From the IMG/VR virus record IMGVR_UViG_3300050139_000115, positions 1 to 53,474 of that record: 53,474 bases of DNA. One strand, given 5' to 3'. Shown one piece after another: positions 13,770 through 31,050 of the stretch. The notes under the pieces are model-generated. The model worked only from the letters and a program-made list of their open reading frames with translations. It had not been told where the DNA came from and made no database searches. Origin of the DNA: a virus (lineage: Duplodnaviria > Caudoviricetes). The first letter of the stretch is position 1. Each line of letters opens with the position of its first letter. The position numbers and the translations under genes are program-made.

Positions 13770-13771
13770 CG

Positions 13772-17866: not shown

Positions 17867-18481
17867 ATGAACGCACCAGAATCAAAGACCGAAGTTCCCA
17901 CAATCATCGGCACACCCTACGGCGGCGGTTTCTTCTACGGCCGCATCATCGACGGCGATCATCTGTTCGCACTGATCGTCGCGCCTAAGGACGGCGGCGA
18001 GCATGACGACACGCCGTGGAATAAGTCAAGGAAGGCTGTTGCCGGCGCCGGCAGCTACTTCGACGGCATGGCCAACACACGCGCGATGGCTGAGGCAGGC
18101 AGCGGACTCGCCCAGTGGGCGCTGGGCCTGAAACTCAACGGCGAGAGCGACTGGTATCTGCCCAGCCGTGACGAGCTGGAGATCCTGTACCGCAACCTCA
18201 AGCCTACCACCCACGAGAACTACGAGTACCGCAACGGCGACAATCCGAGCAGCGTGCCGGCAGGGTATCCATACACCGCCAAGCTGCCAGCGCAAACCGC
18301 TGCCGAGCACTTCCGTACTGGCGGCCCCGAGGCATTCGAGGACGCCTGGTATTGGACCTCAACGCAGTGCGCCCCGGACGACGACTATGCCTGGGCGCAG
18401 GATTTCCTCAACGGCTTCCAGAGCAACTACCGCAAGGACGACGACTTCAGGGCTCGGGCGGTCCGCAGATTGCCCATTTAG
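17867..18481 (+). CDS. DGR1 target A, DUF1566/CLec-like protein
   Basis: IGTPYGGGFFYG, DWYLPSRDEL, WYWTST, RARAVRR; 3' end is VR1a. Confidence 0.88.
   Translation: MNAPESKTEVPTIIGTPYGGGFFYGRIIDGDHLFALIVAPKDGGEHDDTPWNKSRKAVAGAGSYFDGMANTRAMAEAGSGLAQWALGLKLNGESDWYLPSRDELEILYRNLKPTTHENYEYRNGDNPSSVPAGYPYTAKLPAQTAAEHFRTGGPEAFEDAWYWTSTQCAPDDDYAWAQDFLNGFQSNYRKDDDFRARAVRRLPI
18363..18470 (+). repeat. Variable repeat VR1a
   Basis: Aligns ungapped to TR1; 14 mismatches, all at TR A. Confidence 0.95.
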
Positions 18482-18509
18482 TCCATTCAACAATTTCAGG
18501 GGTGAACCG

Positions 18510-19010
18510 ATGAAAAACGCGAAAGCACAATGGATCAAAGAAAACCTCAAGGAAGGCGAGGAATACAGCGGCCTAATTCTTGGCAAGGGCGGCGAGTCGG
18601 ATTACCACCTGATCCTGCGGCCCGGCGAGGCAGAATCCGTCACTCACGAACAAGCCAAGGAATGGGCCAAGAAAGCCGGCGGTGAACTTCCGACTCGCCG
18701 CGACCAGGCGCTGCTCTATGCCAACCTGAAGGAGCAGTTCCAGCCGCGCTGGTACTGGTCTGGCGCGCAGTACGCCCCGGACGACGGCTATGCCTGGGCG
18801 CAGGATTTCGGCTACGGCACCCAGGGCTTCTACCCCAAGGACGACTACTACAGGGCTCGGGCGGTCCGCAGATTGACCCTTCAACAATTTAACCTTTGCT
18901 TTTCAGCATGGCCATTCACACACAATTGCCGATCTACAAGGTTGCGTACAACCTCGCCGATCTTGCCGTCGATCTCATCAAGAACATGCCGCGTGAAGTC
19001 AAAGCGGTGA
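18510..19010 (+). CDS. DGR1 target B, short DUF1566-like protein (reads through into the avd region)
   Basis: GGELPTRRDQALLYANL, WYWSG, RARAVRR; contains VR1b; AGGGG RBS. Confidence 0.82.
   Translation: MKNAKAQWIKENLKEGEEYSGLILGKGGESDYHLILRPGEAESVTHEQAKEWAKKAGGELPTRRDQALLYANLKEQFQPRWYWSGAQYAPDDGYAWAQDFGYGTQGFYPKDDYYRARAVRRLTLQQFNLCFSAWPFTHNCRSTRLRTTSPILPSISSRTCRVKSKR
18766..18873 (+). repeat. Variable repeat VR1b
   Basis: Aligns ungapped to TR1; 16 mismatches, all at TR A. Confidence 0.95.
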
Positions 19011-19264
19011 TCGGCGGCGAGCTTCGGGACGAGTGTCTGCGGCTGTTGGTCCTGATCTTCAGGGCCAACGTCGCCACGGACAAACGCGCGCACCTGACTC
19101 AGTTGATCGAACGCCAGCAAGTGGTCGAGTTGCTTCTCCGCCTGTCGCGGGATAAGCGCTTCATTTCGACCGGGCAGTATGCGCGGGCGGTTCAGTTGAC
19201 CGAGAGCATCGGCAAGCAAGCCAATGGATGGCGCAAAGCTTCCGCATCGTCGCCTGCCACATGA
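18908..19264 (+). CDS. avd: DGR1 accessory variability determinant (four-helix bundle)
   Basis: LPIYK.AY.L...MPR..K..IG...LLRL..D...IGKQANGW; between target and TR. Confidence 0.85.
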   Translation: MAIHTQLPIYKVAYNLADLAVDLIKNMPREVKAVIGGELRDECLRLLVLIFRANVATDKRAHLTQLIERQQVVELLLRLSRDKRFISTGQYARAVQLTESIGKQANGWRKASASSPAT

Positions 19265-19331
19265 AGGTCAAGGCTTTCATGTCCGTGCGATATTCAATCT
19301 GGTCGTGCCGCTTCCTCACGAGGGAACCGAT

Positions 19332-20666
19332 ATGCGCGTAGTGGACACCCACGGCAGCAGCCGGGACGGGTCCGGCGCAGTTTCCCCGCTGATCGGCGCG
19401 AGCCTTCGCCGGGGTGACGTAGATAGCACGAACGACCGCAGTACGCCCCGAACAACGACTATGCCTGGGCGCAGAATTTCAACAACGGCAACCAGAACAA
19501 CTACCACAAGGACAACAACTACAGGGCTCGGGCGGTCCGCAAATGAATACGATGCTGGCCATGCTGATTTTTCTTTTGAGGAATTGGTAGTCGCGTACCT
19601 GGACTGCCGCAAGAACAAGCGCAACACCCACACCGCCGTCGCGTTCGAGCAGGACTTAGAGCGCAACCTGTCCCGGCTTCACAGCGACCTGGTTGACGAG
19701 TCCTACACGCCCGGCCGCTCGATCTGCTTCATTGTCACCAGGCCAAAGGCCCGCGAAGTCTGGGCGGCCGACTTCCGCGATCGCATCGTCCACCATCTGC
19801 TATACAACCGGATCGCGCCACGGTTCTATGCCAGCTTCATCGCTGACACCTGCGCGTGCATCCCAGGCCGCGGCACGCTCTTTGCCGCCCAACGACTCGA
19901 AGCGAAGATCCGGAGCATCACGCAAAACTGGACGCGGCCGGCGTGGTATCTGAAATGTGACATCGCCAATTTCTTCGTCAGTATCGATAAGCGCGTGGTG
20001 CGCGAGCAGCTCGCCGCGCGCGTCACCGAATCGTGGTGGATGGCGCTGGCGGAGACGGTGCTGTTTCACGATCCACGGCCGGGCGCGTCAATACAGAGCA
20101 CACCTGCATTGATGGCACGGGTGCCGCCGCATAAAAGCTTGCTGAACCAGGTCGAGAATCTTGGCCTCCCCATCGGCAATCTATCGTCGCAGTTTTTCGC
20201 CAACGTCTATCTTGATGCCTTGGACCAGCATTGCAAGCACCGCGTGCGTGCGCTGCACTACATCCGCTACGTGGACGACTTCATCCTGCTCCACGAATCA
20301 CCGCAATGGCTGAATACGGCGCACGCCGACATCGAGGCTTTCCTGCCGCGCGAACTTGGCGTCAGGCTGAATCCATCAAAAACCATCTTGCAGCCGGTCG
20401 ATCGCGGCGTGGACTTCGTTGGCCATGTGATCAAGCCCCACAGCCGCACTGTTCGGCGGCGGACCGTCCGCGTAGCCATCGAGCGCATCAGCCGAATGGA
20501 AGGCGAGGACTTATATCGATCGGCGAACAGCTATTTCGGCTTGTTGCGCCAGTCACCGCAGAGCCACACCGACCGAGCGCGCCTGGGCAACGTCCTGCGT
20601 AGCCGCGGGCGTTCGATCAACAAGCAGTTCACGCAAACTTATCGGACGGCTCGAAATGACGATTAA
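19332..20666 (+). CDS. DGR1 reverse transcriptase (start uncertain: ATG 19332, ATG 19461 or TTG 19584)
   Basis: RDRIVHH, YLKCDIANFF.SI, GLPIGNLSSQFFAN, YIRYVDDF, GVDFVG. Confidence 0.92.
   Translation: MRVVDTHGSSRDGSGAVSPLIGASLRRGDVDSTNDRSTPRTTTMPGRRISTTATRTTTTRTTTTGLGRSANEYDAGHADFSFEELVVAYLDCRKNKRNTHTAVAFEQDLERNLSRLHSDLVDESYTPGRSICFIVTRPKAREVWAADFRDRIVHHLLYNRIAPRFYASFIADTCACIPGRGTLFAAQRLEAKIRSITQNWTRPAWYLKCDIANFFVSIDKRVVREQLAARVTESWWMALAETVLFHDPRPGASIQSTPALMARVPPHKSLLNQVENLGLPIGNLSSQFFANVYLDALDQHCKHRVRALHYIRYVDDFILLHESPQWLNTAHADIEAFLPRELGVRLNPSKTILQPVDRGVDFVGHVIKPHSRTVRRRTVRVAIERISRMEGEDLYRSANSYFGLLRQSPQSHTDRARLGNVLRSRGRSINKQFTQTYRTARNDD
19437..19544 (+). repeat. Template repeat TR1
   Basis: AAC-rich copy of both VRs, ending GGGCGGTCCGCAAAT (IMH*). 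Confidence 0.95.
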
Positions 20667-21168
20667 GCCTGTCCGTTTTTCGCTTGACGACGCGCAGACC
20701 GCGGCCGGTGGGTTTTTCAATTGCGGGCCAGCAGCATTGTGCGCCGTCGCTGATCTACTGCCGGATGAGGCGGTGTCCAAGCTGCGCGGTTTCGAGCGAA
20801 AGCACTACACCAATCCCTCGATGATGCAGCAGGCCCTTGGCGATCTCGGCATCAAATTTCAGCGCGTCTATGAATGCCTCGGGCTCGGCATTGCGCGCAG
20901 TCCGCTTTATCCAACTTTCGGCCTTGTCCGGGTGCAGTGGGGCGGCCCGTGGACGAAACCTGGCGTTCCGGTGGCCGCCAGATACCGGCATACACATTGG
21001 ATCGCCGCCAGCGATGAAATGCGCTTCGACGTTAACGCGATGTGCGTTGGCGGCTGGTTGCCGCGCGCCGAGTGGGAAACGCAGCTTGTGCCGTGGCTGC
21101 TGAAGGAATGTGAGCCGAAGGAAAACGGCGAATGGTGGCCAACTCATTGTTGGGAAATTTCGAGGTGA
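20656..21168 (+). CDS. Hypothetical protein, possible papain-like (C39-like) fold
   Basis: NCGPAAL and HTHW motifs. Confidence 0.55.
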   Translation: MTIKPVRFSLDDAQTAAGGFFNCGPAALCAVADLLPDEAVSKLRGFERKHYTNPSMMQQALGDLGIKFQRVYECLGLGIARSPLYPTFGLVRVQWGGPWTKPGVPVAARYRHTHWIAASDEMRFDVNAMCVGGWLPRAEWETQLVPWLLKECEPKENGEWWPTHCWEISR

Positions 21169-21175
21169 CCAATCC

Positions 21176-21499
21176 ATGACCGCCCCCGTCCGCGTCCAGC
21201 TCTCGCGCAAGAAAGGCTTCCGGCTGCCGCCGAACACCGCCAACGTGGCACGGCCGTCGCAGTGGGGCAACCCGATCAAGGTTGGTGGCACGTTGCGCGT
21301 AGAAGCCGATGGCGACATGGTTGAAGCCGCCATCACGCCGGCGATCGCCGTCGAACTCTTCCGCGAATACATCGCCGGCGCGCTGCGCAAACACCCGGCA
21401 CTGCTCGAACCGCTGCGCGGCAAGCGCCTAGCCTGCTGGTGCGCGCTCGATGCGCCATGCCACGCCGACGTATTGCTCCAGTTGGCCAATAAACCATGA
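21176..21499 (+). CDS. DUF4326-like protein
   Basis: RVQLSR.KG.RLP.N...V.RPS.WGNP...LRGK.LACWC...PCHADVL. Confidence 0.85.
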   Translation: MTAPVRVQLSRKKGFRLPPNTANVARPSQWGNPIKVGGTLRVEADGDMVEAAITPAIAVELFREYIAGALRKHPALLEPLRGKRLACWCALDAPCHADVLLQLANKP

Positions 21500-21762
21500 A
21501 CCGGGCTGGCCCCATCGAAAACGTCGCCTACAAATCAGAGGCCGAGATCCGCGCCTATTTGCGCGGCCTCGATGATGGTGGTTTGATCGCCCAAGAAATG
21601 ACGCAGAAGGGCGCCATGCACGCCATCCGCTTCATCCTCCAGACCCCAGGCGATGCGCGCGAACTCGCCAAGCAGATGCGCGACAACCTGCGCTGGCACG
21701 CGATGATCATCAGCGAAGAATGTGCGCGCCGCGGCCTGCCCGTTGTCGCGGAGAACGGCTAA
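21496..21762 (+). CDS. Hypothetical protein
   Basis: ATGA-coupled. Confidence 0.55.
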   Translation: MNRAGPIENVAYKSEAEIRAYLRGLDDGGLIAQEMTQKGAMHAIRFILQTPGDARELAKQMRDNLRWHAMIISEECARRGLPVVAENG

Positions 21763-21765
21763 GCC

Positions 21766-21975
21766 ATGTTTCTCACCGCCGCCGAACTGCGCGAACTGAC
21801 CGGCCGCGCCCGCCGCAAGGATCAACTCGTCTGGCTCAAAGCCAAGGGCTACAAGCACGAAGTGAACGCGCTCGGCAGGATCATCGTCGCCCGTGCCCAT
21901 GTAGATCACCGACTTGGTTCAGGCCAGCCGCCGGCGCCGGAGCCGGATTTCTCGGTGTTCCACAAAGCGGCGTAA
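21766..21975 (+). CDS. Excisionase-like protein (DUF4224-like)
   Basis: MFLT..EL.ELTG....Q..WL...G; immediately upstream of the integrase. Confidence 0.8.
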   Translation: MFLTAAELRELTGRARRKDQLVWLKAKGYKHEVNALGRIIVARAHVDHRLGSGQPPAPEPDFSVFHKAA

Positions 21976-21986
21976 GATAGCCGCCC

Positions 21987-22991
21987 ATGTCCCGCCGCCG
22001 GCTTACCGACCTTCACCTGCCCGTCAGGGTGTATTTCAAGAACGGCAGTTATCGCTATGTTGATCCCGCTAACAAATGGCACACCCTGGGCCGCGCATGG
22101 GACAGGGAGGCGCGCGCAGAGTTCGACCGGCTATCCAGGGGCACCGCACCACCGCAGACCGTATCAGCCCTCCTTGACGCCTTTCTGAAGCATCGCGAAG
22201 ACGAAGTGCGCGCCGGGACGAAGGCGATGCGCACCCTGGACGACAACGAGCAGGAAGCCAAGACGTTGCGCATGGTATTCGGGCAGATGCCGGTATCGAC
22301 GGTCAAGCGCCAGCACGTTGCCCGATATCTCCGGGAGCGCAACGACAAGGACGGCAAGCCGGCGCCAGTGCGCGCCAACCGCGAAGCTGCCCTCCTTTCC
22401 TCTGCCTTCGCCTGGGCGATGGGCCTGCGCGATTGGGACATCAACGAGAATCCATGCTACGGATGCCGGCGGAACACGGAGCGGCCGCGGCGCCGTTACA
22501 TTGAGACATCCGAGCTGGCAATATGGAAGCGCACCGCACCGGCAAGGCTCCGAGCGTTCGTGCTGTTGAAGCGCCTCACCGGATCGCGCCAAGGCGAGCT
22601 ACTCGCGCTCACGCGGGCGAGCATCACAGATCGAGGGCTTACGATCGGGATCTCCAAGACAGGACGAACCAAGATCGTGCGCTGGTCATGGGCGTTGCGT
22701 GTAACGATCGATGCGATCCTGAAGATCCACGGCAAAGTGCCGAAGATCGCGTTATTCCCGGCCAGGAACGGCGGAGCGTTGACCGGGCGAGGATTCAAAA
22801 GCGCATGGGCTCGGGCGATGGAGCCTTACCTTACGGCCGGCGGGGCGCGGTTCCGGGAGAACGACATCCGGGCGAAGACCGCGAGCGACATGAGCACGGC
22901 CGATGCGCAGCAACTGCTCGACCACGCGAGCCCATCGATCACGCGCCGCACCTACCAGCGCGCGCCGGTGAAGGTCAGGCCGTTGCGCTGA
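21987..22991 (+). CDS. int: Tyrosine recombinase integrase
   Basis: LTGSRQGELL.L, SKTG, NDIRAK, LLDH, TRRTY; adjacent to attP. Confidence 0.9.
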   Translation: MSRRRLTDLHLPVRVYFKNGSYRYVDPANKWHTLGRAWDREARAEFDRLSRGTAPPQTVSALLDAFLKHREDEVRAGTKAMRTLDDNEQEAKTLRMVFGQMPVSTVKRQHVARYLRERNDKDGKPAPVRANREAALLSSAFAWAMGLRDWDINENPCYGCRRNTERPRRRYIETSELAIWKRTAPARLRAFVLLKRLTGSRQGELLALTRASITDRGLTIGISKTGRTKIVRWSWALRVTIDAILKIHGKVPKIALFPARNGGALTGRGFKSAWARAMEPYLTAGGARFRENDIRAKTASDMSTADAQQLLDHASPSITRRTYQRAPVKVRPLR

Positions 22992-23053
22992 TTGTCTAAT
23001 ATCCAAAATAGATTTTAGACAATCGCGCTTTCGACTCTTCTAACCCCTTGATT
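22990..23053. promoter_or_regulatory. attP accessory sites: inverted repeat and IHF site
   Basis: GATTGTCTAA (22990-99)/TTAGACAATC (23015-24); 23041-53 reverse complement AATCAAGGGGTTA fits the IHF consensus WATCAANNNNTTR. Confidence 0.6.
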
Positions 23054-23098
23054 TGGGGTGGCTGATGGGGCTCGAACCCACGACAACCGGAATCACAA
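23054..23098 (-). other. attP core = 3' half of tRNA-His(GTG)
   Basis: Reverse complement TTGTGATTCCGGTTGTCGTGGGTTCGAGCCCCATCAGCCACCCCA runs from the anticodon loop to CCA; 5' half absent. Confidence 0.9.
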
Positions 23099-23287
23099 AC
23101 CAAGCGACTTTTGCTGATTTTTAACTAGAAAACAGGAAAGTGTCAAAATCGAGCAATCGGCCGCAATCCGGGCGATTCTAGCCCCTTTCCCGCTGCCGTA
23201 CCCTACCACCCCACCCTAAGCGAACGCACGCGCCCTACCCCTGATCCAAAGGCGCCCGGCTAGAACGTAGCGCCACCCCGTAAACGC

Positions 23288-23320
23288 AAAAAATCCCAGA
23301 CCAGCCGAAGCTGATCTGGG
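23288..23320 (-). terminator. Rho-independent terminator ending the late operon
   Basis: CCCAGATCAGC-TTCG-GCTGGTCTGGG followed by ATTTTTT. Confidence 0.8.
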
Positions 23321-23352
23321 TAGTTCCACAGCAACGCCTTCAGGGTGTCCAG

Positions 23353-23781
23353 CTACGCGCTCGTGACCTCGCCGCCCGTAATAAAGCCATGCCAGGCGCA
23401 TCCACCAATCAGCAGCACCGACCGATTACCACCACCTCCTACCGCGTCGCCGTTCAGCGTCAGGTCGTCGAGACTGGTCCCCGATATTGACCAGCGGCCC
23501 GGACCTGGACGAGCATCCTCGGGCGTGCCGCGGCTTCGAGACCAGCAGACCACCAGGTGAGTGCCGACCGGGCCGCCGTTTGCCGCAAAGCACTTCGGGC
23601 ACAGGAACTGGATGCCCTGCGCTTCGGCAATTGAATCGACGGGGTGCATCACGACCTGTTCGCGCAATTCGGTGTGTGACCCACTCGCCGAGCCGACCGC
23701 CGGATCGTTGACGATTTCCGTTGGCCAGTTTGGTGTCACCACGCGCCGCAGGAAGTGCGGATCGAGTTCGATCAGCTTCAT
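23353..23781 (-). CDS. DUF6527-like protein (copy 1)
   Basis: CPKC...H...RW..SG....LTL...S.....CAWHGFITGG. Confidence 0.65.
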   Translation of the reverse strand: MKLIELDPHFLRRVVTPNWPTEIVNDPAVGSASGSHTELREQVVMHPVDSIAEAQGIQFLCPKCFAANGGPVGTHLVVCWSRSRGTPEDARPGPGRWSISGTSLDDLTLNGDAVGGGGNRSVLLIGGCAWHGFITGGEVTSA

Positions 23782-24409: not shown

Positions 24410-24525
24410 TTACAGTCTGTCCAGAAAAAGAACTTACCCCCTGGCTGGCCGCAGCCGTAGTCAGGGGGCAGTTGCGCGCAACCGGCGATCAGTGCCAGCG
24501 CGAGCGTGGTTATGAATCTACTCAC
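24406..24525 (-). CDS. 39-aa lipoprotein (not in ORF track; possible o-spanin)
   Basis: MSRFITTLALALIAG-C lipobox; GTGA coupling to the upstream stop. Confidence 0.6.
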   Translation of the reverse strand: MSRFITTLALALIAGCAQLPPDYGCGQPGGKFFFWTDCK

Positions 24526-24839: not shown

Positions 24840-24911
24840 GGCGGTGATTCCTTTTCAATGATGAATGGTTAACTGACTCGATGCACTTCGACGCGTTACG
24901 TGCGCGCGCTG

Positions 24912-25322
24912 CTACTTCGTGCCGTACTTGTTGCTGATGCTCTGGAACGCGGAGAGCCCCGACTTCATCGCGGTAAGCGCGGTCGAGATCACGTCGCTCC
25001 CAAATCCCGGGGTATCGACGGCGGTCTGCGCAGCAGCGAGAGAATCGCGAGCGACGTTACGCGCCTTAGTGATCTGCGCAATGACTGCGGGATCGCTGCA
25101 GGGCAGCACGGCTGGAACTGCGCATCGGGAAAGCTGCGCATAGGCGGTGGCGAGTCGCTCGGCGACCCCGTAGCCTTCCTTCGCGGCAAACACGTCGCGC
25201 TGTGCTTTTGTGATGTCGAAGACTGGCGCGCTCACCTCGGTGGTTGGTGAGTTGGAGCAGCCGCTGCCCGCAAGCATCGCGAGCGTGACGGCAATGAACA
25301 ACGATGCAAATAACTTTTTCAT
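24912..25322 (-). CDS. Lipoprotein
   Basis: MKKLFASLFIAVTLAMLAGSG-C signal/lipobox. Confidence 0.7.
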   Translation of the reverse strand: MKKLFASLFIAVTLAMLAGSGCSNSPTTEVSAPVFDITKAQRDVFAAKEGYGVAERLATAYAQLSRCAVPAVLPCSDPAVIAQITKARNVARDSLAAAQTAVDTPGFGSDVISTALTAMKSGLSAFQSISNKYGTK

Positions 25323-25699
25323 GGCGTGGTTCCTTTCGTGGTCGGTTGTACAGCGGGTGGGACGACATTGAGCGCCTCAGCCATCGAGGACTGCGGCGCA
25401 ACAAATGCGGCGATAATTTTCGTGGTATCTGCGGGAGAGACCGGCGGTGTGGCGCCTACGGTGGAGTCCGCCACCGCGACACCCGCGTTGACCGCGATGA
25501 CCTCACGCGCCTTGGTAGCTTGCTCAGAGCGGTGCTTGTCCCACACCCCCCAAACGATCGGGATGACGATCATCACGGCACCGATGATCTCATTGACCGA
25601 ATCGGCATCGATGTATTTGTGCGTCGCCATCCACATCCCGGCCACGCCGAGCATGGTCCGCACCGCGCTTAGCAGGGATTGCTTGGTTACATCATCCAT
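25319..25699 (-). CDS. Putative holin (two hydrophobic segments)
   Basis: Two TM-like segments; upstream of the endolysin. Confidence 0.55.
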   Translation of the reverse strand: MDDVTKQSLLSAVRTMLGVAGMWMATHKYIDADSVNEIIGAVMIVIPIVWGVWDKHRSEQATKAREVIAVNAGVAVADSTVGATPPVSPADTTKIIAAFVAPQSSMAEALNVVPPAVQPTTKGTTP

Positions 25700-25700
25700 T

Positions 25701-26204
25701 TCATTTCTCCGTTAGCATTGCCAAGCTGGCGCCACCGGCGAGCGCAGCCTGAACCACCGAGGTCGGTGTCGGGCTTTCGTAATTCTCAAGCAGCATCTGC
25801 GCGCGAATGAAAGCCGCAAGCTCGGCGCATTGCCAGACCCCGTTCGCGCCAGGCGTGACCTTGGCGATGAAAGACTTGACGGCCTCCCATTTGGAATAGG
25901 GCTCGCCGATCTTGGAGAGCGCAGTTAGTTCGGTGGCATCCGTCCACGGTTCGCGCTTTTCGCCCAAGAGCCAGTAGCATGGCAACAGGCGCGACAGCGG
26001 AAATATCCGAACAGCCGGCACCACGGCCTCGATCACCAGCACCCGATCGCCGATACACCAGGCAACCGCGGCGTGCGCGTACTCGCTACGCGTGAACATG
26101 CGGACACCCTGCACCTGCAGGTCGTACCAGCTACCCCACGCCTCATGTCCCCAGGCGAGCAGATCTCCGGAACGGATTGACGGGCGGGCGTCGGCGTAAT
26201 TCAC
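25701..26204 (-). CDS. Permuted papain-like amidase (YiiX/YaeF, C92-like)
   Basis: GDLL...S.YAHA...VIEA...G.PY...CAEL (His before Cys). Confidence 0.7.
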   Translation of the reverse strand: MNYADARPSIRSGDLLAWGHEAWGSWYDLQVQGVRMFTRSEYAHAAVAWCIGDRVLVIEAVVPAVRIFPLSRLLPCYWLLGEKREPWTDATELTALSKIGEPYSKWEAVKSFIAKVTPGANGVWQCAELAAFIRAQMLLENYESPTPTSVVQAALAGGASLAMLTEK

Positions 26205-26210
26205 TCTTTT

Positions 26211-27047
26211 CTACCGAACAAAAGTCTGCCCGCTCGGTGTCTGCCCGCTCGGTGTCTGCCCGCTCGGTGTCTGCCCGCTCGGTGTCTGCCCGCTCGGTGT
26301 CTGCCCGCTCGGTGTCTGCAAGTAGAGCACCTGGGGAGCTTGAGCCACTGGTGCCGTCGATTTGGTTTCCGCGAAGATCAGCGCGACCACGGCCACGGCG
26401 ACGCCGGCAACCGCCAGGATTGCGGCCCAGGTCGAGCCGATGCCTTCGCTCTTGCCTTGGTTCGCCGACTGCGCTTTGACCATGTTGCGCATTTCGGTCA
26501 TCAGCTCGGCCATCGCCGGGTCGGTGTAGGCGCTTCGCCCCTGTCCGGTGTACGAGGATTTTTCCAAGGTGGCGATGCGTTCGGTGAACTGCGCAGTCAG
26601 CGCGTTTTGCGCCTTCGCCATCGTGTCGGCGGTGGTTGCCACCAGGGCGCGCAGCGCGTCCGCCGATGCGGCCACCTGATTCGCCAGCACCGAGGCTTGC
26701 TGCCCGGCGCGCTCACTTGCCACCGCCACCGCCGCTACGTCCACGGCGCGGATGGCGTCGATGCGCTTCGCCTCCGCGAGCGCCAGTTTTTCATGGAAGT
26801 CAGCGACCAGCTTTTGCTGTTCGTCAATGCGCCTGCTTTCCGCCCCCCTCAAATCGTCGAGCCTCTTGCTCTCGGCCACAGAACGAAGCAAGGCGGTATC
26901 TTTCAAGTTGCCCATCACCGCGTCGTAATACTTATTGTCCGACTTGCGCAGGTCACGCTGCGCTTTGACCGCAGCCTTGACCAGCGCCATGACGTTCTCG
27001 GTCGGGTCAACGGCGCCTTTGCTATTTCTTTGTTGATCGACGGTCAT
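26211..27047 (-). CDS. Coiled-coil protein with C-terminal TM segment and (QTPSG)6 tail
   Basis: Ala-rich helices, WAAILAVAGVAVAVVALIF; GGAG RBS. Confidence 0.7.
   Translation of the reverse strand: MTVDQQRNSKGAVDPTENVMALVKAAVKAQRDLRKSDNKYYDAVMGNLKDTALLRSVAESKRLDDLRGAESRRIDEQQKLVADFHEKLALAEAKRIDAIRAVDVAAVAVASERAGQQASVLANQVAASADALRALVATTADTMAKAQNALTAQFTERIATLEKSSYTGQGRSAYTDPAMAELMTEMRNMVKAQSANQGKSEGIGSTWAAILAVAGVAVAVVALIFAETKSTAPVAQAPQVLYLQTPSGQTPSGQTPSGQTPSGQTPSGQTPSGQTFVR
26224..26319. repeat. 15-bp perfect tandem repeat x6.4
   Basis: GTCTGCCCGCTCGGT units. Confidence 0.95.
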
Positions 27048-27062
27048 CGCGTGTTCTCCGTT

Positions 27063-27443
27063 TTATTTCGCCGTGCGCCAAACGCGCTCGCCGAGCAAGT
27101 AGAATTTGTCCCAGGTGTACGGCTCCTGCTCCCAACGCATCACGTTCGGATAGCGATTGTCCAGAACGTAATCCTCATTGCCCAACGTCGCCACCAGAAC
27201 ACAGTGGTATTCGTCTTTCTCGGTGTAGCACAGACCGAGTTTCAACTGCTCACGCGGCCAACCGGCGGCCAGTAGCTTCCGCATTTTGGCGATCGCATAG
27301 TCCTCGCAATCCCCCTCGTTGCCTTCGTCGAGCGCGTCTTCCCACCAATCGTCGCGCTTGTACTTGGTGGCGTCATCAACGTAGGTCACCGCCGAGTTGA
27401 CTTCGGTGTTGATCGCGGTGAGCGCATCGAGTGTCACTGACAT
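27063..27443 (-). CDS. Transglutaminase-like cysteine peptidase (BTLCP/C93, LapG-like)
   Basis: IN..VN, GDCEDYAIAK, H.VL, VLDN triad. Confidence 0.85.
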   Translation of the reverse strand: MSVTLDALTAINTEVNSAVTYVDDATKYKRDDWWEDALDEGNEGDCEDYAIAKMRKLLAAGWPREQLKLGLCYTEKDEYHCVLVATLGNEDYVLDNRYPNVMRWEQEPYTWDKFYLLGERVWRTAK

Positions 27444-27595
27444 TCGGATCTCCCCGGATGCTCATTGCAGTACGCCGTCCAGTTCGGATTTGCGTCCGTT
27501 CTGCCGCCCATCGGTATGGTGCTGTCCGGGCCGGCCGGTTGTACCGGAGCGCACGCCGAGGCGAGCAGCAATAAAATGACGCAATATCGCCTCAT
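27434..27595 (-). CDS. Small lipoprotein resembling a BTLCP N-terminus
   Basis: LLLLASA-C lipobox; P.W..YC..HP...C. Confidence 0.6.
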   Translation of the reverse strand: MRRYCVILLLLASACAPVQPAGPDSTIPMGGRTDANPNWTAYCNEHPGRSECQ

Positions 27596-28053
27596 CACAG
27601 ACCCAGCTTCGCTTTCTCTGCGCGCCCCCACGTGCGCACGGCCTCGACGTGCGCGCCGAAAGCCACCAAAGCATCACGCTCCCCCGCTTCGAACGTGTAC
27701 GCCCCAAGCGCTACGCCCACACCAATCCGAGCAAAATACTGCTCATCTTCGAGGCTATAGCGCGCTCGAATCTGCTCCTGCATCCGGGACGAGATCAGTG
27801 CGACATGCGGGCTCGCCGCCTTGATCGCGTCGCGCAGCGCGTCGGTGAGCGTCACCGGCGCCACGTTTGCCGCGATCTCTTGCGGCTGCTCGGCAGGCAG
27901 TGCGGCCCCGTCTGGCAGGGCGACATAGGTAATGCCCTCGACGGTGGCCAGTTCGGTGCCCAGACGCTGGCGCGTCGTTGGGTCTTCAGGCAGCCGCAGC
28001 TCGCGGGTGATCTGCTCGTCGATATGCTTGCGGTAGCCAATGATGGAGGGCAT
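27595..28053 (-). CDS. Hypothetical protein downstream of the DGR2 RT
   Basis: AAGGAG RBS; MPSIIGYRK...KAKLGL. Confidence 0.7.
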   Translation of the reverse strand: MPSIIGYRKHIDEQITRELRLPEDPTTRQRLGTELATVEGITYVALPDGAALPAEQPQEIAANVAPVTLTDALRDAIKAASPHVALISSRMQEQIRARYSLEDEQYFARIGVGVALGAYTFEAGERDALVAFGAHVEAVRTWGRAEKAKLGL

Positions 28054-29002
28054 GGTTGTGCTCCTTGAGATAACGCAGCATGTGCTGCAATGAATGGGTG
28101 CGGCGCGCATGGCCGAGCACTGAAACCGTGCTCTCCATTTCGCCGCGCTTGACGGACTGGCGGAAGGTATAAAGGCTATGCCGGCGCACGAAGCGCTTGC
28201 TGATCCAGGTGCGGTAGCCGACGAAGTTCATGCCGCGCTTCACCCGCGCCAGGGTAGACTTCGACAGCTCGAGATGAAGGCCGGCGATGAACTCCACGAT
28301 CCGCGCCTTGCAGATCAGTAGTGCCTCGCGCGTCAAACCGAACAGCACGAAGTCGTCCACATAGCGGCAGTAGCGCTTGATGTGCAGAACGCGCTTGATG
28401 AAGTGATCGAGCGGGTTGAGGTAGATCAGTGCGTAGAGTTGCGAAAGCAGGTTGCCGATTGGAATGCCAACCGGCTCGCCGTGGTCCGAGAACAGCATCA
28501 TCAGATCCACGAATCGCCGGTCCTTGATCTTTCGTTCGATCAGGCCGCGAAGAATCTTCCGATCGATACGATAGAAGAACTTTCGGATGTCGAGCTTCAA
28601 CGTGTAGCTGCCAGGCGGGCAGGCTTGCAGAGCCTCCTGCGCGTAGTCAGCGGCCTTGTGCGTGCCATAACCGACGCGGCATGCAAACGATTGATCGATG
28701 AAGCCGCGGTCGAAGATCGGCCCGGCCACGGCATAGATGGCATGCTGCACCACCAGGTCGCGGAAGGCGGGAGCATAGATGCGCCGCGGCTTCGGTTCGT
28801 AGACCATGAAACTATAGTACGGGCGCGGCTTGTAGCTGCCGTCTGCCAGCTCTCGGTGCAGTGCGTCCATATTGGCGGCCAGGCGCTTCTCGAAGTTGAA
28901 ACACGCACGCTTGCCGTGCTTATGTCTCGCCGCGGCGTGGAAGGCCAACCGCAGCGCCTCCGGTGTGAAGGCGGATTCGAACAGATAACCGAAGCGCTTC
29001 AT
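27986..29002 (-). CDS. DGR2 reverse transcriptase
   Basis: FRDLVVQH, LKLDIRKFF, GIPIGNLLSQ, YCRYVDDF, NFVGY. Confidence 0.93.
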   Translation of the reverse strand: MKRFGYLFESAFTPEALRLAFHAAARHKHGKRACFNFEKRLAANMDALHRELADGSYKPRPYYSFMVYEPKPRRIYAPAFRDLVVQHAIYAVAGPIFDRGFIDQSFACRVGYGTHKAADYAQEALQACPPGSYTLKLDIRKFFYRIDRKILRGLIERKIKDRRFVDLMMLFSDHGEPVGIPIGNLLSQLYALIYLNPLDHFIKRVLHIKRYCRYVDDFVLFGLTREALLICKARIVEFIAGLHLELSKSTLARVKRGMNFVGYRTWISKRFVRRHSLYTFRQSVKRGEMESTVSVLGHARRTHSLQHMLRYLKEHNHALHHWLPQAYRRADHPRAAAA

Positions 29003-29154
29003 TACCGGAACTCCGCTTGACGTTCGAGACGGCATGCCGCCCTACCAGAAAAGCGCCGGCACACCGATTTCGCCGTGACTATCATGGCGCTAATCACGCG
29101 CCGGAAAGCGTCTCCCTTGATTCCACTTCGACCCTGCAGCCCGTGAGGTGAAAT

Positions 29155-29274
29155 CGAGTCCGCGCGAAACCCCACGTTGTTGTTGGAGTTGCTACGCACA
29201 TTGTTGAGATTGAAATACCAGACCCCGGCGTTCGACGAGTTGTTCCAGTTGCCGCCAGAGATCGGGCACATGTC
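29155..29274 (-). repeat. Template repeat TR2
   Basis: AAC-rich (GGNWNNSSNAGVW...NNNVGFRA) copy of VR2. Confidence 0.95.
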
Positions 29275-29683
29275 AAGACGCTTCCCGTTTTTCGAGCTGA
29301 TGTTCGGCGACGATCCAGCCGCCGAGCATCCTGCCTAATTCGTCCACCAGCCGCGAGAGCGCGAGATACCGATGCTCGCCCAACGCGGCCGGAGATTTGT
29401 CCACCTTCTTCCCATCCTTGAACTCGAAATATCCGAGCGTGTACGCGAGGCGCACCAGCATGCGCAGTTGCTCGTGCCGGATGTCCAGATTCGTCAGGCT
29501 GGTTTTCTTGTGATAGCGCTTCTGCGCTTCGACGATGAAACCATAGACCTCGTAGGCCGCGCGCCGGATTTCGAGCGCGAGACCGTACTTTTCATGCTTC
29601 GGGAAGTGATTCAGATGCACGTTCATCAGCTTCGCGAATTCCATGAATTTCTGATCCAGTTTGGCTTCGTCGTGTAGCCCCAT
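29273..29683 (-). CDS. avd: DGR2 accessory variability determinant
   Basis: FPKHEKYGL..EIR, KKTSL..LD...EQLR, ELGRMLGGW. Confidence 0.9.
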   Translation of the reverse strand: MGLHDEAKLDQKFMEFAKLMNVHLNHFPKHEKYGLALEIRRAAYEVYGFIVEAQKRYHKKTSLTNLDIRHEQLRMLVRLAYTLGYFEFKDGKKVDKSPAALGEHRYLALSRLVDELGRMLGGWIVAEHQLEKREAS

Positions 29684-29699
29684 CGCTATCGCTCGGGGC
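29677..29699 (-). other. Hairpin 3' of VR2 (candidate retrohoming cis element)
   Basis: GCCCC-GA-GC-GATA-GC-GA-T-GGGGC directly after the target stop. Confidence 0.55.
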
Positions 29700-29700
29700 C

Positions 29701-31050
29701 TCAGAGATACAAGGCCGCGCGAAACCCCACGCTGTAGGCGGCGTTGCCACGCACATCGTAGAGACTGAAATCCCAGACCCCGGCGCTCGACGAGGCGTTC
29801 CAGTAGCCGCCAGAGAGCGGGCACATGTCTGCCACACGATAATCGTAGAAGGCATCATTGCCGAAAGGGTTGGTGCCACCAACCCCGCCAACCAGGGGGC
29901 CACCAACCCCGGTCCATTGCCAGGCGAGTCCGCTGGTGGCCTCGCTGAACACCTGCGCGGCATTGCCGTAAAGCTTGAGACTGGCACTGGCAAGCGCCGC
30001 ACCGTAGGTCGCGCCGAGATCGTCGTAGTTCGCCGCCAGTTGCCCGGCCGTGCCCCAGAGATCGAGCGCGCCACCAACGCCGGCCGTCATGTCCTTCATG
30101 CGCGCCGAAGTCTTGAGCACGTAGTAATGCGTCGCGGCCGTCTCAGAAACCAGGCCAAGATCGATGTTGTAGATGAGGCCATTCAAATCGGCGACGCCGC
30201 TGTTCTGGCCGTTGTGTGTTGTCCGACTGAACAGGTTCGCCGATCCCGTCTTTCCGCAGTTGGTAGCCGTGCCATCGTTCAGGTAGAGGATGGCGGCGTC
30301 CTGCGCATCGCCCAGGGCGTTGTTGTTGCAGCCCTTGGGGAAGTTATTCACGGCGTGATACCAGGCGCAGTAGGTGGTGGTGCTCGACGCCTGGCCGTGG
30401 GCGTAGGCCAAGAGCGCCAGCGCCGCGCGGATGAAGCGAGACGAGCAGAAGAAGTTCGCGCCGCGCGTCTTGGCCGCCGCGATCGCGCCGTAGTAGGCAT
30501 CGATGGGCGCTCCGGTGAGGGAGGCAAAGTTCGTGTTGGCGATGCCTCCACGCAGGGCACTTGCCAGCGGGATGCCGTTTTTCAGGCTGGACGCAATGCC
30601 GCCGTTGCGACTCGGCACGTATTTGTCCACGAAGAAACCGGCCTGAATCGCGCCACCATCGTAGAACGCCCGGTGCAGCGCATAGCCCGCGGCGTTGGCC
30701 GTGGCCACGTCGACGTAAGCGGAAAATGGCTGGATCGCCACCTGGTTCAACGTGACGCCATTCGCGCCGGTCCCCCATTTGTAATAGAAGGCGGGAATCC
30801 AGACCATGACCGAGCCATCGGAATACTGGTAATTCCCGTAGGCGTCGGCGAGTGGATTCTGGTAGTCGGACAAACCGCCCATGCCGGCTGGCAGCGGGCC
30901 GGGACAGACGCCGACACCGAATCCAGCCTGGCCGGCAATGCCGATGTTGTTGATGCCACCCAGGGCGCCCGAGCCGATGACGATGCCGGTGGGGAACTGC
31001 ACCGGCTGGCCGTCCTTGCCGGTAATTTTGCGAAGATTGAGGTTGCTCAC
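29701..31050 (-). CDS. DGR2 target, Mtd-like CLec-fold tail/receptor-binding protein
   Basis: FFVDKY, HNG..SGVADLNG, C-terminal GG.W....AGVW...VGFRAA; GTG start coupled to the upstream tail gene. Confidence 0.85.
   Translation of the reverse strand: MSNLNLRKITGKDGQPVQFPTGIVIGSGALGGINNIGIAGQAGFGVGVCPGPLPAGMGGLSDYQNPLADAYGNYQYSDGSVMVWIPAFYYKWGTGANGVTLNQVAIQPFSAYVDVATANAAGYALHRAFYDGGAIQAGFFVDKYVPSRNGGIASSLKNGIPLASALRGGIANTNFASLTGAPIDAYYGAIAAAKTRGANFFCSSRFIRAALALLAYAHGQASSTTTYCAWYHAVNNFPKGCNNNALGDAQDAAILYLNDGTATNCGKTGSANLFSRTTHNGQNSGVADLNGLIYNIDLGLVSETAATHYYVLKTSARMKDMTAGVGGALDLWGTAGQLAANYDDLGATYGAALASASLKLYGNAAQVFSEATSGLAWQWTGVGGPLVGGVGGTNPFGNDAFYDYRVADMCPLSGGYWNASSSAGVWDFSLYDVRGNAAYSVGFRAALYL
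29710..29829 (-). repeat. Variable repeat VR2
   Basis: Ungapped 120-bp alignment to TR2; 14 mismatches at TR A, 2 T>G, 1 C>T at the IMH end. Confidence 0.95.

What the first reader, a model, noticed from the sequence alone, without database searches (positions are those of the whole stretch)
17867..31050. Two complete, unrelated DGRs in one 53-kb phage, one early and one late
Seen: two RTs, two Avds and two TRs with no evident nucleotide similarity, on opposite strands either side of attP. DGR1 is in the repressor-controlled early operon; DGR2 is in the tail module. Known: the BPP-1 paradigm is one DGR acting on the tail fibre Mtd. Inference: this phage diversifies its receptor binding and an intracellular function with separate machinery at different stages, which offers a natural test of RT/Avd/TR specificity.
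Basis: partly seen in the sequence, partly recalled or inferred. Interest (0 to 1): 0.88.

Follow-up and report, generated by a model that had tools for sequence, protein, structure and literature searches.

The report
Temperate phage with two separate DGRs
One complete temperate phage genome carries two different targeted-hypermutation systems, one rewriting a tail protein and one rewriting two small soluble lectin-fold proteins encoded among its early genes; this pairing is rare but recurs in other phages.

Summary
The window is a complete virus record of 53,474 bases with a 127-base terminal repeat. It holds two full diversity-generating retroelements (DGRs), each with target, Avd, TR and RT, on opposite strands either side of xis-int-attP.

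All three VRs differ from their TR almost only at TR adenines: 14 of 15, 16 of 17 and 14 of 16 mismatches. The two RTs are 29% identical and fall in separate clades. The TRs share no similarity, and the helper RNAs differ: Rfam RT-15 lies 5' of TR1, and an uncatalogued covarying spacer lies 3' of TR2.

DGR2 is a BPP-1-like tail-module element whose target has a TaqVP/Mtd-like fold. DGR1 belongs to the Magia-type early-operon class with stand-alone DUF1566 targets. This scan has noted that class many times on other DNA.

The pairing is the new part. It occurs in 2 of 44 related virus records, in 0 of 80 bacterial loci, and in none of the 110 and 155 matching GenBank phage records. "Repressor-controlled" and "intracellular" remain inferences. 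The second gains support from close homologues fused to an exoribonuclease or Dam domain.

Activity and orthogonality are untested. Verdict: a new variant of a known kind, of moderate to high interest.

The parts
17867..18481 (+). DGR1 target 1a: a stand-alone DUF1566/Lcl_C lectin-fold protein of 204 aa from the ATG (the ORF opens at TTG 17837)
   Evidence: Pfam Lcl_C 2.4e-12, 47.6 bits against a cut-off of 34.9. The AF2 model has pLDDT 95.2. Best PDB match is the Legionella Lcl C-terminal domain at E 5.6e-4. No hydrophobic N-terminus. A homologue is present in 65 of 80 RT1-family viral loci.
18363..18471 (+). VR1a
   Evidence: 15 mismatches to TR1 over 109 bases, 14 of them at TR adenines.
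18510..19010 (+). DGR1 target 1b: a second small DUF1566-like protein of 166 aa. Its normal stop is missing, so it reads 43 aa on into avd1.
   Evidence: Lcl_C 5.4e-5, 23.9 bits, which is below the cut-off. Translation. The ORF runs 46 residues past the RARAVR motif, against 4-6 residues in most relatives. A homologue is present in 74 of 80 loci.
18766..18874 (+). VR1b
   Evidence: 17 mismatches to TR1, 16 of them at TR adenines.
18908..19264 (+). avd1 (accessory variability determinant)
   Evidence: Pfam bAvd 7.6e-14. 97% identical to the copy in L003, and present in 79 of 80 loci.
19248..19438 (+). RT-15 RNA motif (Rfam RF03018), a structured RNA directly 5' of TR1
   Evidence: 167 bits against a gathering score of 82, E 2.1e-40, full length 1-192. 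It sits in the same place in L076 and in phage Magia.
19437..19545 (+). TR1 (template repeat), rich in AAC codons when read in the VR frame
   Evidence: and the sequence.
19224..20666 (+). RT1 open frame. RT homology runs from about residue 105. The true start lies at or after TR1 and is not resolved.
   Evidence: RVT_1 2e-16. IGNLSSQ and YVDD motifs are present. 58-62% identical to the RTs of phages Magia and Cruim01. Clade support 97.
21766..21975 (+). excisionase
   Evidence: phrog_4764, 9.8e-17.
21987..22991 (+). tyrosine integrase
   Evidence: Pfam Phage_integrase 4.5e-10.
23053..23100 (.). attP core, matching the 3' end of a tRNA gene (reverse complement)
   Evidence: Sequence. In public contigs the depth is 48 against about 15, with a joint and tRNA-like loose ends at 23051-23102.
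29701..31062 (-). DGR2 target: a 453-aa variable protein at the distal end of the tail module
   Evidence: No Pfam family. The AF2 model has pLDDT 76.8. Foldseek matches TaqVP (5vf4) at E 2.5e-12 and Mtd weakly at 0.04. A homologue is present in 68 of 80 RT2-family loci.
29712..29829 (-). VR2
   Evidence: 16 mismatches to TR2: 14 at TR adenines and 2 T-to-G.
29273..29683 (-). avd2
   Evidence: bAvd 9.5e-18. ATG at 29683. Up to 88% identical in relatives and present in 77 of 80 loci.
29157..29274 (-). TR2
29036..29158 (-). TR2-to-RT2 spacer: a conserved structured RNA that is not in Rfam
   Evidence: No Rfam match at E<=1. The structure has 22 pairs, 10 of them with compensatory changes, across 37 sequences. 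99.1% of cells pair, against 34-53% in slid controls, and 0 of 500 shuffles reach the observed covariation score.
27986..29035 (-). RT2
   Evidence: RVT_1 1.2e-12. IGNLLSQ and YVDD motifs are present. 61.5% identical to the RT of Pseudomonas phage Bise and 36.5% to BPP-1 Brt.
27595..28053 (-). Conserved small ORF downstream of RT2 (152 aa from the internal Met), function unknown
   Evidence: A homologue is present in 77 of 80 RT2-family loci. The Atlas places it in viral hypothetical clusters, with only sub-0.9 leads to XkdW, DUF4376 and Caudo_TAP.

Best explanation
This is one genuine temperate, lambda-like phage genome. It carries two independent DGRs that were acquired from different DGR lineages and that sit on either side of xis-int-attP.

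DGR2 has the order target-avd2-TR2-spacer RNA-RT2 on the late strand, between the tail genes and the lysis genes. It is a BPP-1-like element. Its RT/Avd complex copies TR2 RNA with errors at adenines, and the cDNA replaces VR2 at the C-terminus of a TaqVP/Mtd-like tail protein. The inferred result is variation in receptor binding.

DGR1 has the order target1a-target1b-avd1-RT-15 RNA-TR1-RT1 on the early strand, just upstream of xis-int. It is a Magia-type element that does the same to two small stand-alone DUF1566 lectin-fold proteins. These have no signal peptide and no fibre stalk. Their most likely role is as soluble binders inside the infected or lysogenic cell, for example in counter-defence, exclusion or targeting of nucleic-acid enzymes.

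The two systems differ in RT, Avd, TR, the 3' homing sequence and the side on which the helper RNA lies. Each therefore probably serves only its own VRs.

Shown: the anatomy, the adenine bias, the lineages, the folds, the synteny and the recurrence of the pairing.
Inferred: current activity, timing of expression, the location and ligands of the DGR1 targets, and orthogonality.
For: Completeness and adenine bias.

Single genome:
- The record has direct terminal repeats and is rated 100% complete. The terminal repeat is exact over 127 bases.
- Contig depth is even at 14-16 across both cassettes in run X1, which may be the source sample. Pieces from both sides also occur in runs X2 and X3.
- Tetranucleotide correlation between the two halves is 0.98, higher than within either half.

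Lineages:
- RT1 and RT2 are 29% identical.
- In the tree, RT1 groups with Magia, Cruim01 and L076_RTa (support 97). RT2 groups with Bise on the side that holds BPP-1 Brt (support 96).

Different RNAs: RT-15 lies 5' of TR1. A covarying spacer lies 3' of TR2, with no Rfam match.

Folds: for target 1a; for target 2.

Context:
- RT1-type cassettes are flanked by RecE, RecT, ParB, methyltransferase, HNH and integrase families. No tail family appears in the top 25 families for the 100 upstream ORFs or the 94 downstream ORFs.
- Magia has the same synteny.
- RT2-type and BPP-1 cassettes follow tail genes.

Intracellular hint: of the 10 long homologues that I scanned, all 51-58% identical to target 1a, one is fused to an Rv2179c-like 3'-5' exoribonuclease domain (2.4e-48), one to a Dam domain (1.1e-10), and one weakly to DHH/DHHA1.

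Recurrence: L076/G029 and G034 also have an early-slot DGR between RecE and the integrase, plus a second DGR. In L076 the second target is a tail protein (phrog_11262, 2.3e-82). All of these repeats show adenine-biased mismatches.
Against: - There is no read-level evidence of ongoing mutagenesis. The public runs are kept only as contigs, which drop rare variants.
- No repressor or promoter was identified, so 'early' rests on strand and synteny alone.
- Target 1b has lost its usual stop and overlaps avd1. TR2/VR2 has two non-adenine mismatches. Some decay is therefore possible.
- No significant hairpin lies downstream of any VR (z between -0.3 and 0).
- The DUF1566 fold also forms the tips of tail-fibre-like phage proteins carrying collagen, tail-collar or Mtd_N domains, at about 40% identity. 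A virion or extracellular role for the DGR1 targets is therefore not excluded.
- The tree is a quick search, not the careful one.
Confidence: 0.7

Rival explanations
1. Both DGRs serve host recognition. On this reading the small DGR1 proteins are extracellular or virion-associated, for example adaptor tips that dock on the tail or proteins released at lysis. The phage would then diversify two receptor-binding specificities rather than one external and one internal function.
For: The target 1a fold matches an adhesin domain (Legionella Lcl C-terminal domain). It also matches DUF1566 domains at the ends of phage proteins annotated as tail fibre, collagen repeat or peptidase S74. Many long homologues at about 40% identity carry collagen (PF01391), PF12571 or PF18454 domains (those family names are recalled, not returned by a call).
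Against: There is no signal peptide and no stalk or anchoring domain. The genes lie on the early strand, 5-10 kb and one attP away from the tail genes. No tail family appears among the top 25 families flanking 80 related cassettes. Of the 10 closest long homologues scanned, two are clearly fused to cytoplasmic enzymes and one weakly, and none showed a fibre domain.
Confidence: 0.2
2. DGR1 is a lysogenic-conversion or prophage-expressed module rather than an early lytic one. On this reading it is transcribed from the integrated prophage next to int. Its diversified binders would protect the lysogen, for example by superinfection exclusion or sensing, rather than help the infecting phage.
For: The cassette sits at the int-proximal end of the genome. 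That is where it lies at a prophage end in provirus records, and many RT1 loci end 1.5-5 kb after the RT. In Magia an annotated terminator precedes the first target, which suggests a transcription unit of its own. Published work links some non-structural DGR targets to defence islands (Benler 2021, passages read).
Against: No promoter or terminator was detected around the cassette in this window. It is co-oriented with, and contiguous to, recombination-type early genes in relatives. No expression data are available.
Confidence: 0.25
3. One of the two cassettes is a decaying relic that no longer mutagenises, so the phage effectively runs only one DGR.
For: Target 1b has lost its stop codon and runs into avd1. 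TR2/VR2 carries two T-to-G mismatches. No VR-proximal hairpin is significant. No read-level variation could be seen.
Against: Both RT frames are open and keep the SQ and YVDD motifs. Both Avds are intact. VR1a and VR1b carry largely different adenine-site substitutions. TRs are conserved across relatives while VRs differ at adenine positions. Both helper RNAs are intact.
Confidence: 0.12
4. The contig is an assembly chimera of two phages, joined at the tRNA-like attP core that is shared with other genomes.
For: Logan unitigs break exactly at the attP core, where depth triples. No single listed public contig spans the whole 15.5-33 kb stretch.
Against: A chimera would need a second false join at the 127-base terminal repeat. 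The genome has one set each of terminase, portal, protease, tail, lysis and integrase genes. Depth is even at 14-16 on both sides in X1. Tetranucleotide correlation is 0.98. The same layout is seen in the DTR record L076/G029 and in phage Magia, apart from DGR2.
Confidence: 0.03

Closest known systems
Bordetella phage BPP-1 DGR (mtd-avd/bbp7-TR-brt; record AY029185)
   Same: DGR2 has the same gene order, with the VR at the 3' end of a tail protein. The element lies at the distal end of the late genes, near an attP that matches a tRNA 3' end. The RTs are 36.5% identical. There is a structured spacer between TR and RT.
   Different: The DGR2 spacer does not match Rfam Phage_DGR (RF03022) at E<=1, whereas BPP-1 does at 104.7 bits. 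The target is closer in fold to TaqVP than to Mtd. BPP-1 has a single DGR.
Burkholderia cenocepacia phage Magia DGR (MT701587; Microbiol Resour Announc 2021, PMC7883833; passages read)
   Same: The RT is 58% identical to RT1. RT-15 RNA lies between avd and TR. Small lectin-fold targets, Avd and RT sit in the early block between recombination genes and the integrase, converging on the lysis genes.
   Different: Magia has only this one RT locus (1 place). Its targets have not been studied functionally. The paper suggests only adaptation or a change in host range.
Quimbyvirus DGR (Benler et al. 2021, PMC8008677; passages read)
   Same: It is a phage that hypermutates both a structural-module protein and a non-structural protein among defence and counter-defence genes. 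This is the same two-compartment idea.
   Different: Quimbyvirus does this with one RT and one TR acting on two VRs. Here, two separate RT/Avd/TR/RNA sets each serve their own targets.
Cellular genomes with several DGRs (Wu et al. 2018, PMC5758913: about 10% of DGR-bearing complete genomes; Trichodesmium IMS101 with two DGR RTs, PMC8867640; passages read)
   Same: More than one DGR in one replicon, each with targets of its own nearby.
   Different: Those are chromosomes of several megabases. In the example given by Wu et al. the copies are nearly identical. Here two distant lineages share a 53-kb virus.
TaqVP (PDB 5vf4) and the Legionella Lcl C-terminal domain (PDB 8q4e)
   Same: These are the best fold matches for target 2 (E 2.5e-12) and target 1a (E 5.6e-4) respectively. 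Both are C-type-lectin-like scaffolds.
   Different: Sequence identity is only 14-16%. No ligand can be inferred for either target.

Membership tests
Diversity-generating retroelement (applies to DGR1 and DGR2) | A reverse transcriptase of the DGR type, with an SQ motif in the finger/palm region and a YxDD catalytic site (motif definitions recalled from the DGR literature) | tested here: met
   RVT_1 at 2e-16 and 1.2e-12. IGNLSSQ with YVDD in RT1 and IGNLLSQ with YVDD in RT2. Both fall in clades with known phage DGR RTs.
Diversity-generating retroelement (applies to DGR1 and DGR2) | A TR/VR pair whose differences lie at TR adenines | tested here: met
   14 of 15, 16 of 17 and 14 of 16 mismatches at adenines, with Fisher p between 2.8e-7 and 7e-9.
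Diversity-generating retroelement (applies to DGR1 and DGR2) | The VR lies at the 3' end of a target ORF and encodes part of a C-type-lectin-like fold | tested here: met
   Lcl_C, and models with fold matches. For target 1b the ORF now continues 43 aa past the VR.
Diversity-generating retroelement (applies to DGR1 and DGR2) | An accessory Avd gene next to the TR | tested here: met
   bAvd at 7.6e-14 and 9.5e-18.
Diversity-generating retroelement (applies to DGR1 and DGR2) | An IMH at the 3' end of the VR, seen as a G+C-rich stretch shared with the TR followed by divergence (IMH versus IMH*) | tested here: met
   Read directly from the alignments. A 17-base G+C-rich block ends VR1a, VR1b and TR1, and a 14-base block ends VR2 and TR2. 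After each block the VR and TR diverge. Function was not tested.
Diversity-generating retroelement (applies to DGR1 and DGR2) | A hairpin or cruciform just downstream of the VR (described for BPP-1; recalled) | tested here: inconclusive
   DNA folds of the 76 bases at each VR end are no better than shuffled sequence (z -0.28, -0.29, -0.03). An 8-pair stem at VR1a is not significant.
Diversity-generating retroelement (applies to DGR1 and DGR2) | Ongoing mutagenic retrohoming | not testable with these tools
   The runs that hold the phage are kept as contigs only.
RT-15-RNA / Magia-type early-operon phage DGR (DGR1) | An RT-15 RNA (RF03018) between avd and TR, an RT in the Magia/Cruim01 clade, and small stand-alone DUF1566 targets | tested here: met
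   167 bits. Clade support 97. Both targets are conserved, in 65 and 74 of 80 loci.
BPP-1-type DGR RNA (Rfam Phage_DGR, RF03022) (DGR2) | A match of the TR-to-RT spacer to RF03022 | tested here: not met
   No Rfam match at E<=1 in 28800-29800. The positive controls BPP-1 (104.7 bits) and L076 DGRb (77.6 bits) do match. DGR2 works like BPP-1 in layout but has its own spacer family.
Temperate lambda-like phage | Integrase and excisionase next to attP at the junction of converging early and late blocks, and a complete genome | tested here: met
   A repressor was not found.

The most novel reading that the evidence does not exclude
Phages repeatedly assemble a two-compartment hypermutation system. 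An early-operon DGR evolves soluble intracellular binders for counter-defence, exclusion or targeting of nucleic-acid enzymes. A separate late-operon DGR evolves the receptor-binding tail protein. The two are kept orthogonal by different RT, Avd, TR, IMH and helper-RNA sets. The pairing arose at least three times from different lineage combinations: RT-15-type with RT2-type here, RT-15-type with BPP-1-type in L076, and a divergent RT with RT2-type in G034. That pattern would imply selection for independent control of the two diversification programmes.
Probability: 0.3. Interest if true: 0.8.

Novelty: new variant of a known kind. Interest (0 to 1): 0.6.

Why it matters
DGRs are the only known natural system of targeted protein hypermutation in prokaryotes and their viruses. 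The one phage paradigm that has been studied experimentally is a single DGR acting on a tail fibre.

A complete phage with two distant DGRs is a natural specificity experiment. It has two RTs, two Avds, two TRs, two homing sequences and two differently placed helper RNAs in one cytoplasm. This makes it possible to test which parts decide which VR is rewritten.

It also places an example of the poorly understood early-operon class, with stand-alone lectin-fold targets, beside a classical tail DGR in one genome. If both are needed, the early class is not simply a displaced receptor-binding system. The fusions of close target homologues to an exoribonuclease or Dam domain give a concrete lead to an intracellular role linked to nucleic acids.

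The uncatalogued spacer RNA of the RT2 family could be added to RNA family libraries. Orthogonal DGR pairs would also be useful for in-vivo directed evolution.

Tried and rejected
- Megablast of 17-32 kb against GenBank phages found no match.
- Sequence search of target 1a, target 2 and the small ORF against PDB sequences found nothing useful. Fold searches were needed instead.
- Repressor hunt: Pfam on 29 small ORFs gave only DUF6457 (below cut-off) and DUF7352. I therefore dropped 'repressor-controlled'.
- The promoter scan found 2 sites against 5.3 expected by chance. The only convincing terminator is on the - strand at 23320-23295, after the last late gene. Operon limits for DGR1 stay unresolved.
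- ARAGORN found no tRNA gene in the window. The attP core is only a tRNA fragment.
- VR-proximal hairpins were not significant.
- Read-level variation: read laying returned contigs only. It listed 40 of 377 variant rows, and none of those fell in a VR. Bins without cover in X2, X3 and X14 (for example 17836-18419) prove nothing.
- The joint 29714->29160 in X2 is a contig jumping between VR2 and TR2, not biology.
- I first read the conserved N-terminal 100 residues of the 480-aa RT1 frame as possible protein. I rejected this because the region is the RT-15 RNA plus TR1.
- The careful tree did not finish, so the quick tree is reported.
- Literature: searches for two DGRs in one phage and passages read in PMC11661182, PMC7981956, PMC8144416, PMC11792537, PMC8867640 and PMC10053308 gave no report of a phage with two DGRs. 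Searches for 'Burkholderia phage Magia' and for 'RT-15' with DGR returned nothing. Supplementary tables were closed and not seen. Those of Roux 2021, Wu 2018 and similar surveys may list such contigs.

Full report
WHAT THE WINDOW IS

The window is a whole IMG/VR virus record of 53,474 bases. It is classed as having direct terminal repeats and as 100% complete. The first and last 127 bases are identical.

The late genes lie on the - strand:
- terminase large subunit (49861-51612), portal, head protease, head-tail adaptors, tail completion protein and major tail protein (39478-40077);
- a 1840-aa protein with a lambda tape-measure C-terminal domain;
- an endolysin at 23778-24260;
- a strong terminator at 23320-23295.

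A + strand block runs from about 10874 to 22991. It contains a ParB-like protein, a dATP/dGTP pyrophosphohydrolase, DGR1, DUF4326, an excisionase (21766-21975, phrog_4764 at 9.8e-17) and a tyrosine integrase (21987-22991).

Between the converging blocks lies an attP-like core at about 23053-23100. It reads as the reverse complement of a tRNA 3' end. In public contigs this spot has triple depth and tRNA-like loose ends. The arrangement is the same as in phage lambda, with xis-int at the end of the leftward early operon, converging on attP and the late genes.

THE OBSERVATION

DGR1 (+ strand) consists of:
- target 1a, 17867-18481 (Lcl_C/DUF1566, 2.4e-12);
- target 1b, 18510-19010;
- avd1, 18908-19264 (bAvd, 7.6e-14);
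- TR1, 19437-19545;
- RT1, ending at 20666 (RVT_1, 2e-16).

DGR2 (- strand) consists of:
- a 453-aa target, 31062-29701;
- avd2, 29683-29273 (bAvd, 9.5e-18);
- TR2, 29274-29157;
- RT2, 29035-27986 (RVT_1, 1.2e-12).

Over the 109-base core, TR1 differs from VR1a at 15 positions, 14 of them TR adenines. It differs from VR1b at 17 positions, 16 of them adenines. TR2 differs from VR2 at 16 positions, 14 of them adenines. Fisher p lies between 2.8e-7 and 7e-9.

A scan of both strands of the window for further copies, at 80% or more identity over non-A positions, found only these five repeats and no cross-match. blastn between the cassettes gave one 37-base, 81% match inside the RT genes and nothing at TR or VR.

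The RTs are 29% identical (E 2e-41). The Avds are 22% identical (E 0.001). Both RTs keep the SQ and YVDD motifs (the motif definitions are recalled). The word 'unrelated' should be read as 'two distant lineages of the DGR family'.

IS IT ONE GENOME?

- In run X1, which may be the source and so is not independent, Logan unitigs tile 15.5-33 kb at an even depth of 14-16. They break only at repeats: the VRs, the 15-base tandem repeat at 26.2 kb, and the attP core.
- Runs X2 and X3, from other samples, hold identical pieces from both sides, for example 20199-21431 and 23094-27670.
- The tetranucleotide profiles of the two halves correlate at 0.98, which is higher than within either half.
- A chimera would need false joins both at attP and at the terminal repeat.
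- The same layout occurs independently elsewhere (see the section on rarity).

I put the chance of chimerism at about 3%.

TWO LINEAGES WITH DIFFERENT HELPER RNAS

RT1 has 379 relatives in IMG/VR and RT2 has 130.

A quick maximum-likelihood tree of 36 RTs separates two clades. The careful search did not finish.
- One clade holds RT1, phage Magia, phage Cruim01 and L076_RTa (support 97).
- The other holds the RT2 family with phage Bise, and BPP-1 Brt with L076_RTb (support 96).

Rfam finds a full-length RT-15 RNA (RF03018, 167 bits) at 19248-19438, between avd1 and TR1. The same motif lies at the same place in L076 and Magia. This explains why the long RT1 'ORF' looked conserved upstream of the RT domain.

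DGR2 has no Rfam match. However, the 120 bases between TR2 and RT2 form a conserved structure in 37 family members:
- 22 pairs, 10 of them with compensatory changes;
- 99.1% of cells paired, against 34-53% when the partners are slid;
- covariation score 0.376, against 0.065 or less in slid controls;
- 0 of 500 shuffles as high.

BPP-1 and L076's second DGR carry the Rfam Phage_DGR RNA at that position instead. The two cassettes of this phage thus differ in every known specificity element, including the side of the TR on which the structured RNA lies.

WHAT DGR2 DOES

The gene order is that of BPP-1, mtd-avd-TR-brt, next to an attP that matches a tRNA. In phage Bise the RT2-type cassette follows baseplate and tail genes.

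The 453-aa target has no Pfam family. Its model (pLDDT 76.8) matches the DGR variable protein TaqVP at E 2.5e-12, and matches Mtd and formylglycine-generating enzymes weakly.

Across relatives the TRs are conserved while the VRs differ at adenine positions. Diversification of a receptor-binding tail protein is the straightforward reading.

WHAT DGR1 DOES

Target 1a is essentially one domain. Its model (pLDDT 95.2) is closest to the Legionella Lcl C-terminal domain and to C-type lectin domains. Neither target has a signal peptide or a stalk.

The cassette with both small targets is conserved in 65-79 of 80 RT1-family viral loci. The family alignment shows a fixed scaffold with hypervariable VR columns.

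For the two ORFs on each side of these cassettes (100 upstream and 94 downstream), the most frequent PHROG families are RecE, RecT and Bet recombinases, dNMP phosphatase, ParB-like proteins, DNA methyltransferases, HNH endonucleases and integrase. No tail family is in either top 25.

Phage Magia has the order nuclease-RecT-ATPase-regulator-terminator-lectin target-ORF-Avd-RT-...-integrase, converging on the lysis genes. Its genome announcement only notes a 'potential DGR' with targets in short genes 47 and 57 (PMC7883833, passages read).

In bacterial genomes the type occurs in Burkholderiales and Pseudomonas. That makes a betaproteobacterial host likely.

A search for longer homologues of target 1a found 226 at E<=1e-5.
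- Those at about 40% identity often carry collagen or fibre-type domains.
- I scanned ten of those at 51-58% identity. One has an N-terminal Rv2179c-like 3'-5' exoribonuclease domain (2.4e-48). One has a Dam methyltransferase domain (1.1e-10). One has weak DHH/DHHA1 matches. Seven have no other family.
- The three sequences I fetched (P0017, P0023 and P0011) each end in the VR-type RxRAVRRF tail.

Together with the context, this favours an intracellular job linked to nucleic acids or host-phage conflict.

No repressor was found among the 29 small ORFs tested. 'Repressor-controlled' is therefore unproven.

Target 1b is atypical. Its frame runs 46 residues past the RARAVR motif, into avd1. In 47 of 65 sequences with two or more motif hits (the window included), the first two targets both stop within 6 residues.

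HOW RARE IS THE PAIRING?

| Set examined | With a second RT locus |
|---|---|
| Viral loci, within +/-10 kb | 1 of 160 (L076) |
| Whole related virus records of 30 kb or more | 2 of 44 (G029 = L076; G034) |
| Bacterial RT1-type loci | 0 of 80 |
| GenBank phage records matching RT1 | 0 of 110 |
| GenBank phage records matching RT2 | 0 of 155 |

Both other cases repeat the logic of this phage.

L076 is a 41-kb record with terminal repeats. It has RecE-target-avd-RT-15-TR-RT-...-integrase on one strand. Converging on it is a 711-aa tail protein (phrog_11262, 2.3e-82) with VR-avd-TR-Phage_DGR RNA-RT. Mismatches at adenines are 18 of 19 and 11 of 11.

G034 is 61 kb. It has RecE-...-a 227-aa stand-alone FGE-like lectin target-TR-RT-...-integrase. 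That RT is very divergent but carries IGNLSSQ, and 16 of 17 mismatches are at adenines. An RT2-type DGR lies 30 kb away.

The slot between the recombination genes and int therefore attracts DGRs of different lineages, and the early-plus-late pairing has arisen from at least three lineage combinations.

COMPARISON WITH WHAT IS KNOWN

- Single tail-fibre DGRs (BPP-1) are textbook knowledge.
- Magia-type early-operon DGRs exist in deposited phages. This scan has noted them repeatedly on other DNA. None of the notes shown described two DGRs in one phage.
- Benler et al. 2021 reported that Quimbyvirus's single DGR targets one structural protein and one protein in a defence-related island (PMC8008677, passages read).
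- Wu et al. 2018 state that about 10% of DGR-bearing complete genomes have several DGRs (PMC5758913, passage read).
- Roux et al. 2021 distinguish structural from 'non-structural' viral targets (PMC8144416, passages read).
- My literature searches found no report of one phage with two DGRs.

VERDICT

The finding is real. It is best described as a new variant of a known kind: a dual-DGR temperate phage that combines a classical tail DGR with an early-operon DGR, using fully distinct machinery.

Its main value is as a natural test bed for DGR specificity and as leverage on the unknown function of the early-operon lectin targets. Activity, timing, target location and orthogonality remain to be shown.

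Interest 0.6.

Noticed in passing
window 29036-29158 (-), and RT2-family loci (alignment A7): The TR2-to-RT2 spacer is a conserved structured RNA: three helices, strong covariation, and invariant single-stranded GAAATCGG and TTCTGGTAGG blocks. It matches no Rfam family, so it is a candidate new DGR RNA family.
   Followed up: partly
window 19248-19438 (+): A full-length Rfam RT-15 RNA lies 5' of TR1. The textbook BPP-1 helper RNA lies 3' of the TR. RT-15 also explains the apparent conservation of the long N-terminal extension of the RT1 open frame.
   Followed up: yes
window 18875-19010 (+): Target 1b lacks the stop that follows the VR in relatives and in target 1a. The difference looks like a 9-base deletion relative to target 1a that removed the TAG. 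The frame now reads 43 aa into avd1 in another frame.
   Followed up: partly
proteins P0017, P0023, P0011: Close homologues of target 1a (51-54% identical) are C-terminal heads on an Rv2179c-like 3'-5' exoribonuclease, on a Dam methyltransferase, and (weakly) on a DHH/DHHA1 phosphoesterase. Each ends in a VR-like sequence.
   Followed up: partly
L076 (G029) 4171-16164; L163 (G034) 797-10363 plus G034:C1:34761-35345: Two other virus records also carry two DGRs. In each, one DGR lies between RecE and the integrase and has a small stand-alone lectin target. In G034 that early DGR has a very divergent RT and an FGE-like target.
   Followed up: partly
window 27595-28053 (-): A small ORF overlapping the 3' end of RT2 is conserved in 77 of 80 RT2-family loci. 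It belongs to viral hypothetical-protein clusters only. Weak leads point to tail-fibre-assembly-like families.
   Followed up: partly
window 29217/29772 and 29187/29742 (-): There are two T-to-G TR2/VR2 mismatches. At the first, the TRs of relatives have A (ACG) where this TR has T. This fits a change in the TR itself. At the second, relatives keep T in both TR and VR.
   Followed up: partly
window 26209-26328: About seven tandem copies of a 15-base unit lie at the 3' end of the 278-aa ORF 26211-27047 (-). Public unitigs break there.
   Followed up: no
window 33635-34480 (-), inside the 1840-aa gene 32692-38214: There are long arrays of 42-base (14-aa) repeats downstream of the lambda tape-measure C-terminal domain. 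The protein is much longer than the tape-measure part alone.
   Followed up: no
window 27063-27443 (-): A BTLCP-type transglutaminase-like cysteine peptidase (Peptidase_C93, 4.1e-28) is encoded between DGR2 and the lysis genes.
   Followed up: no
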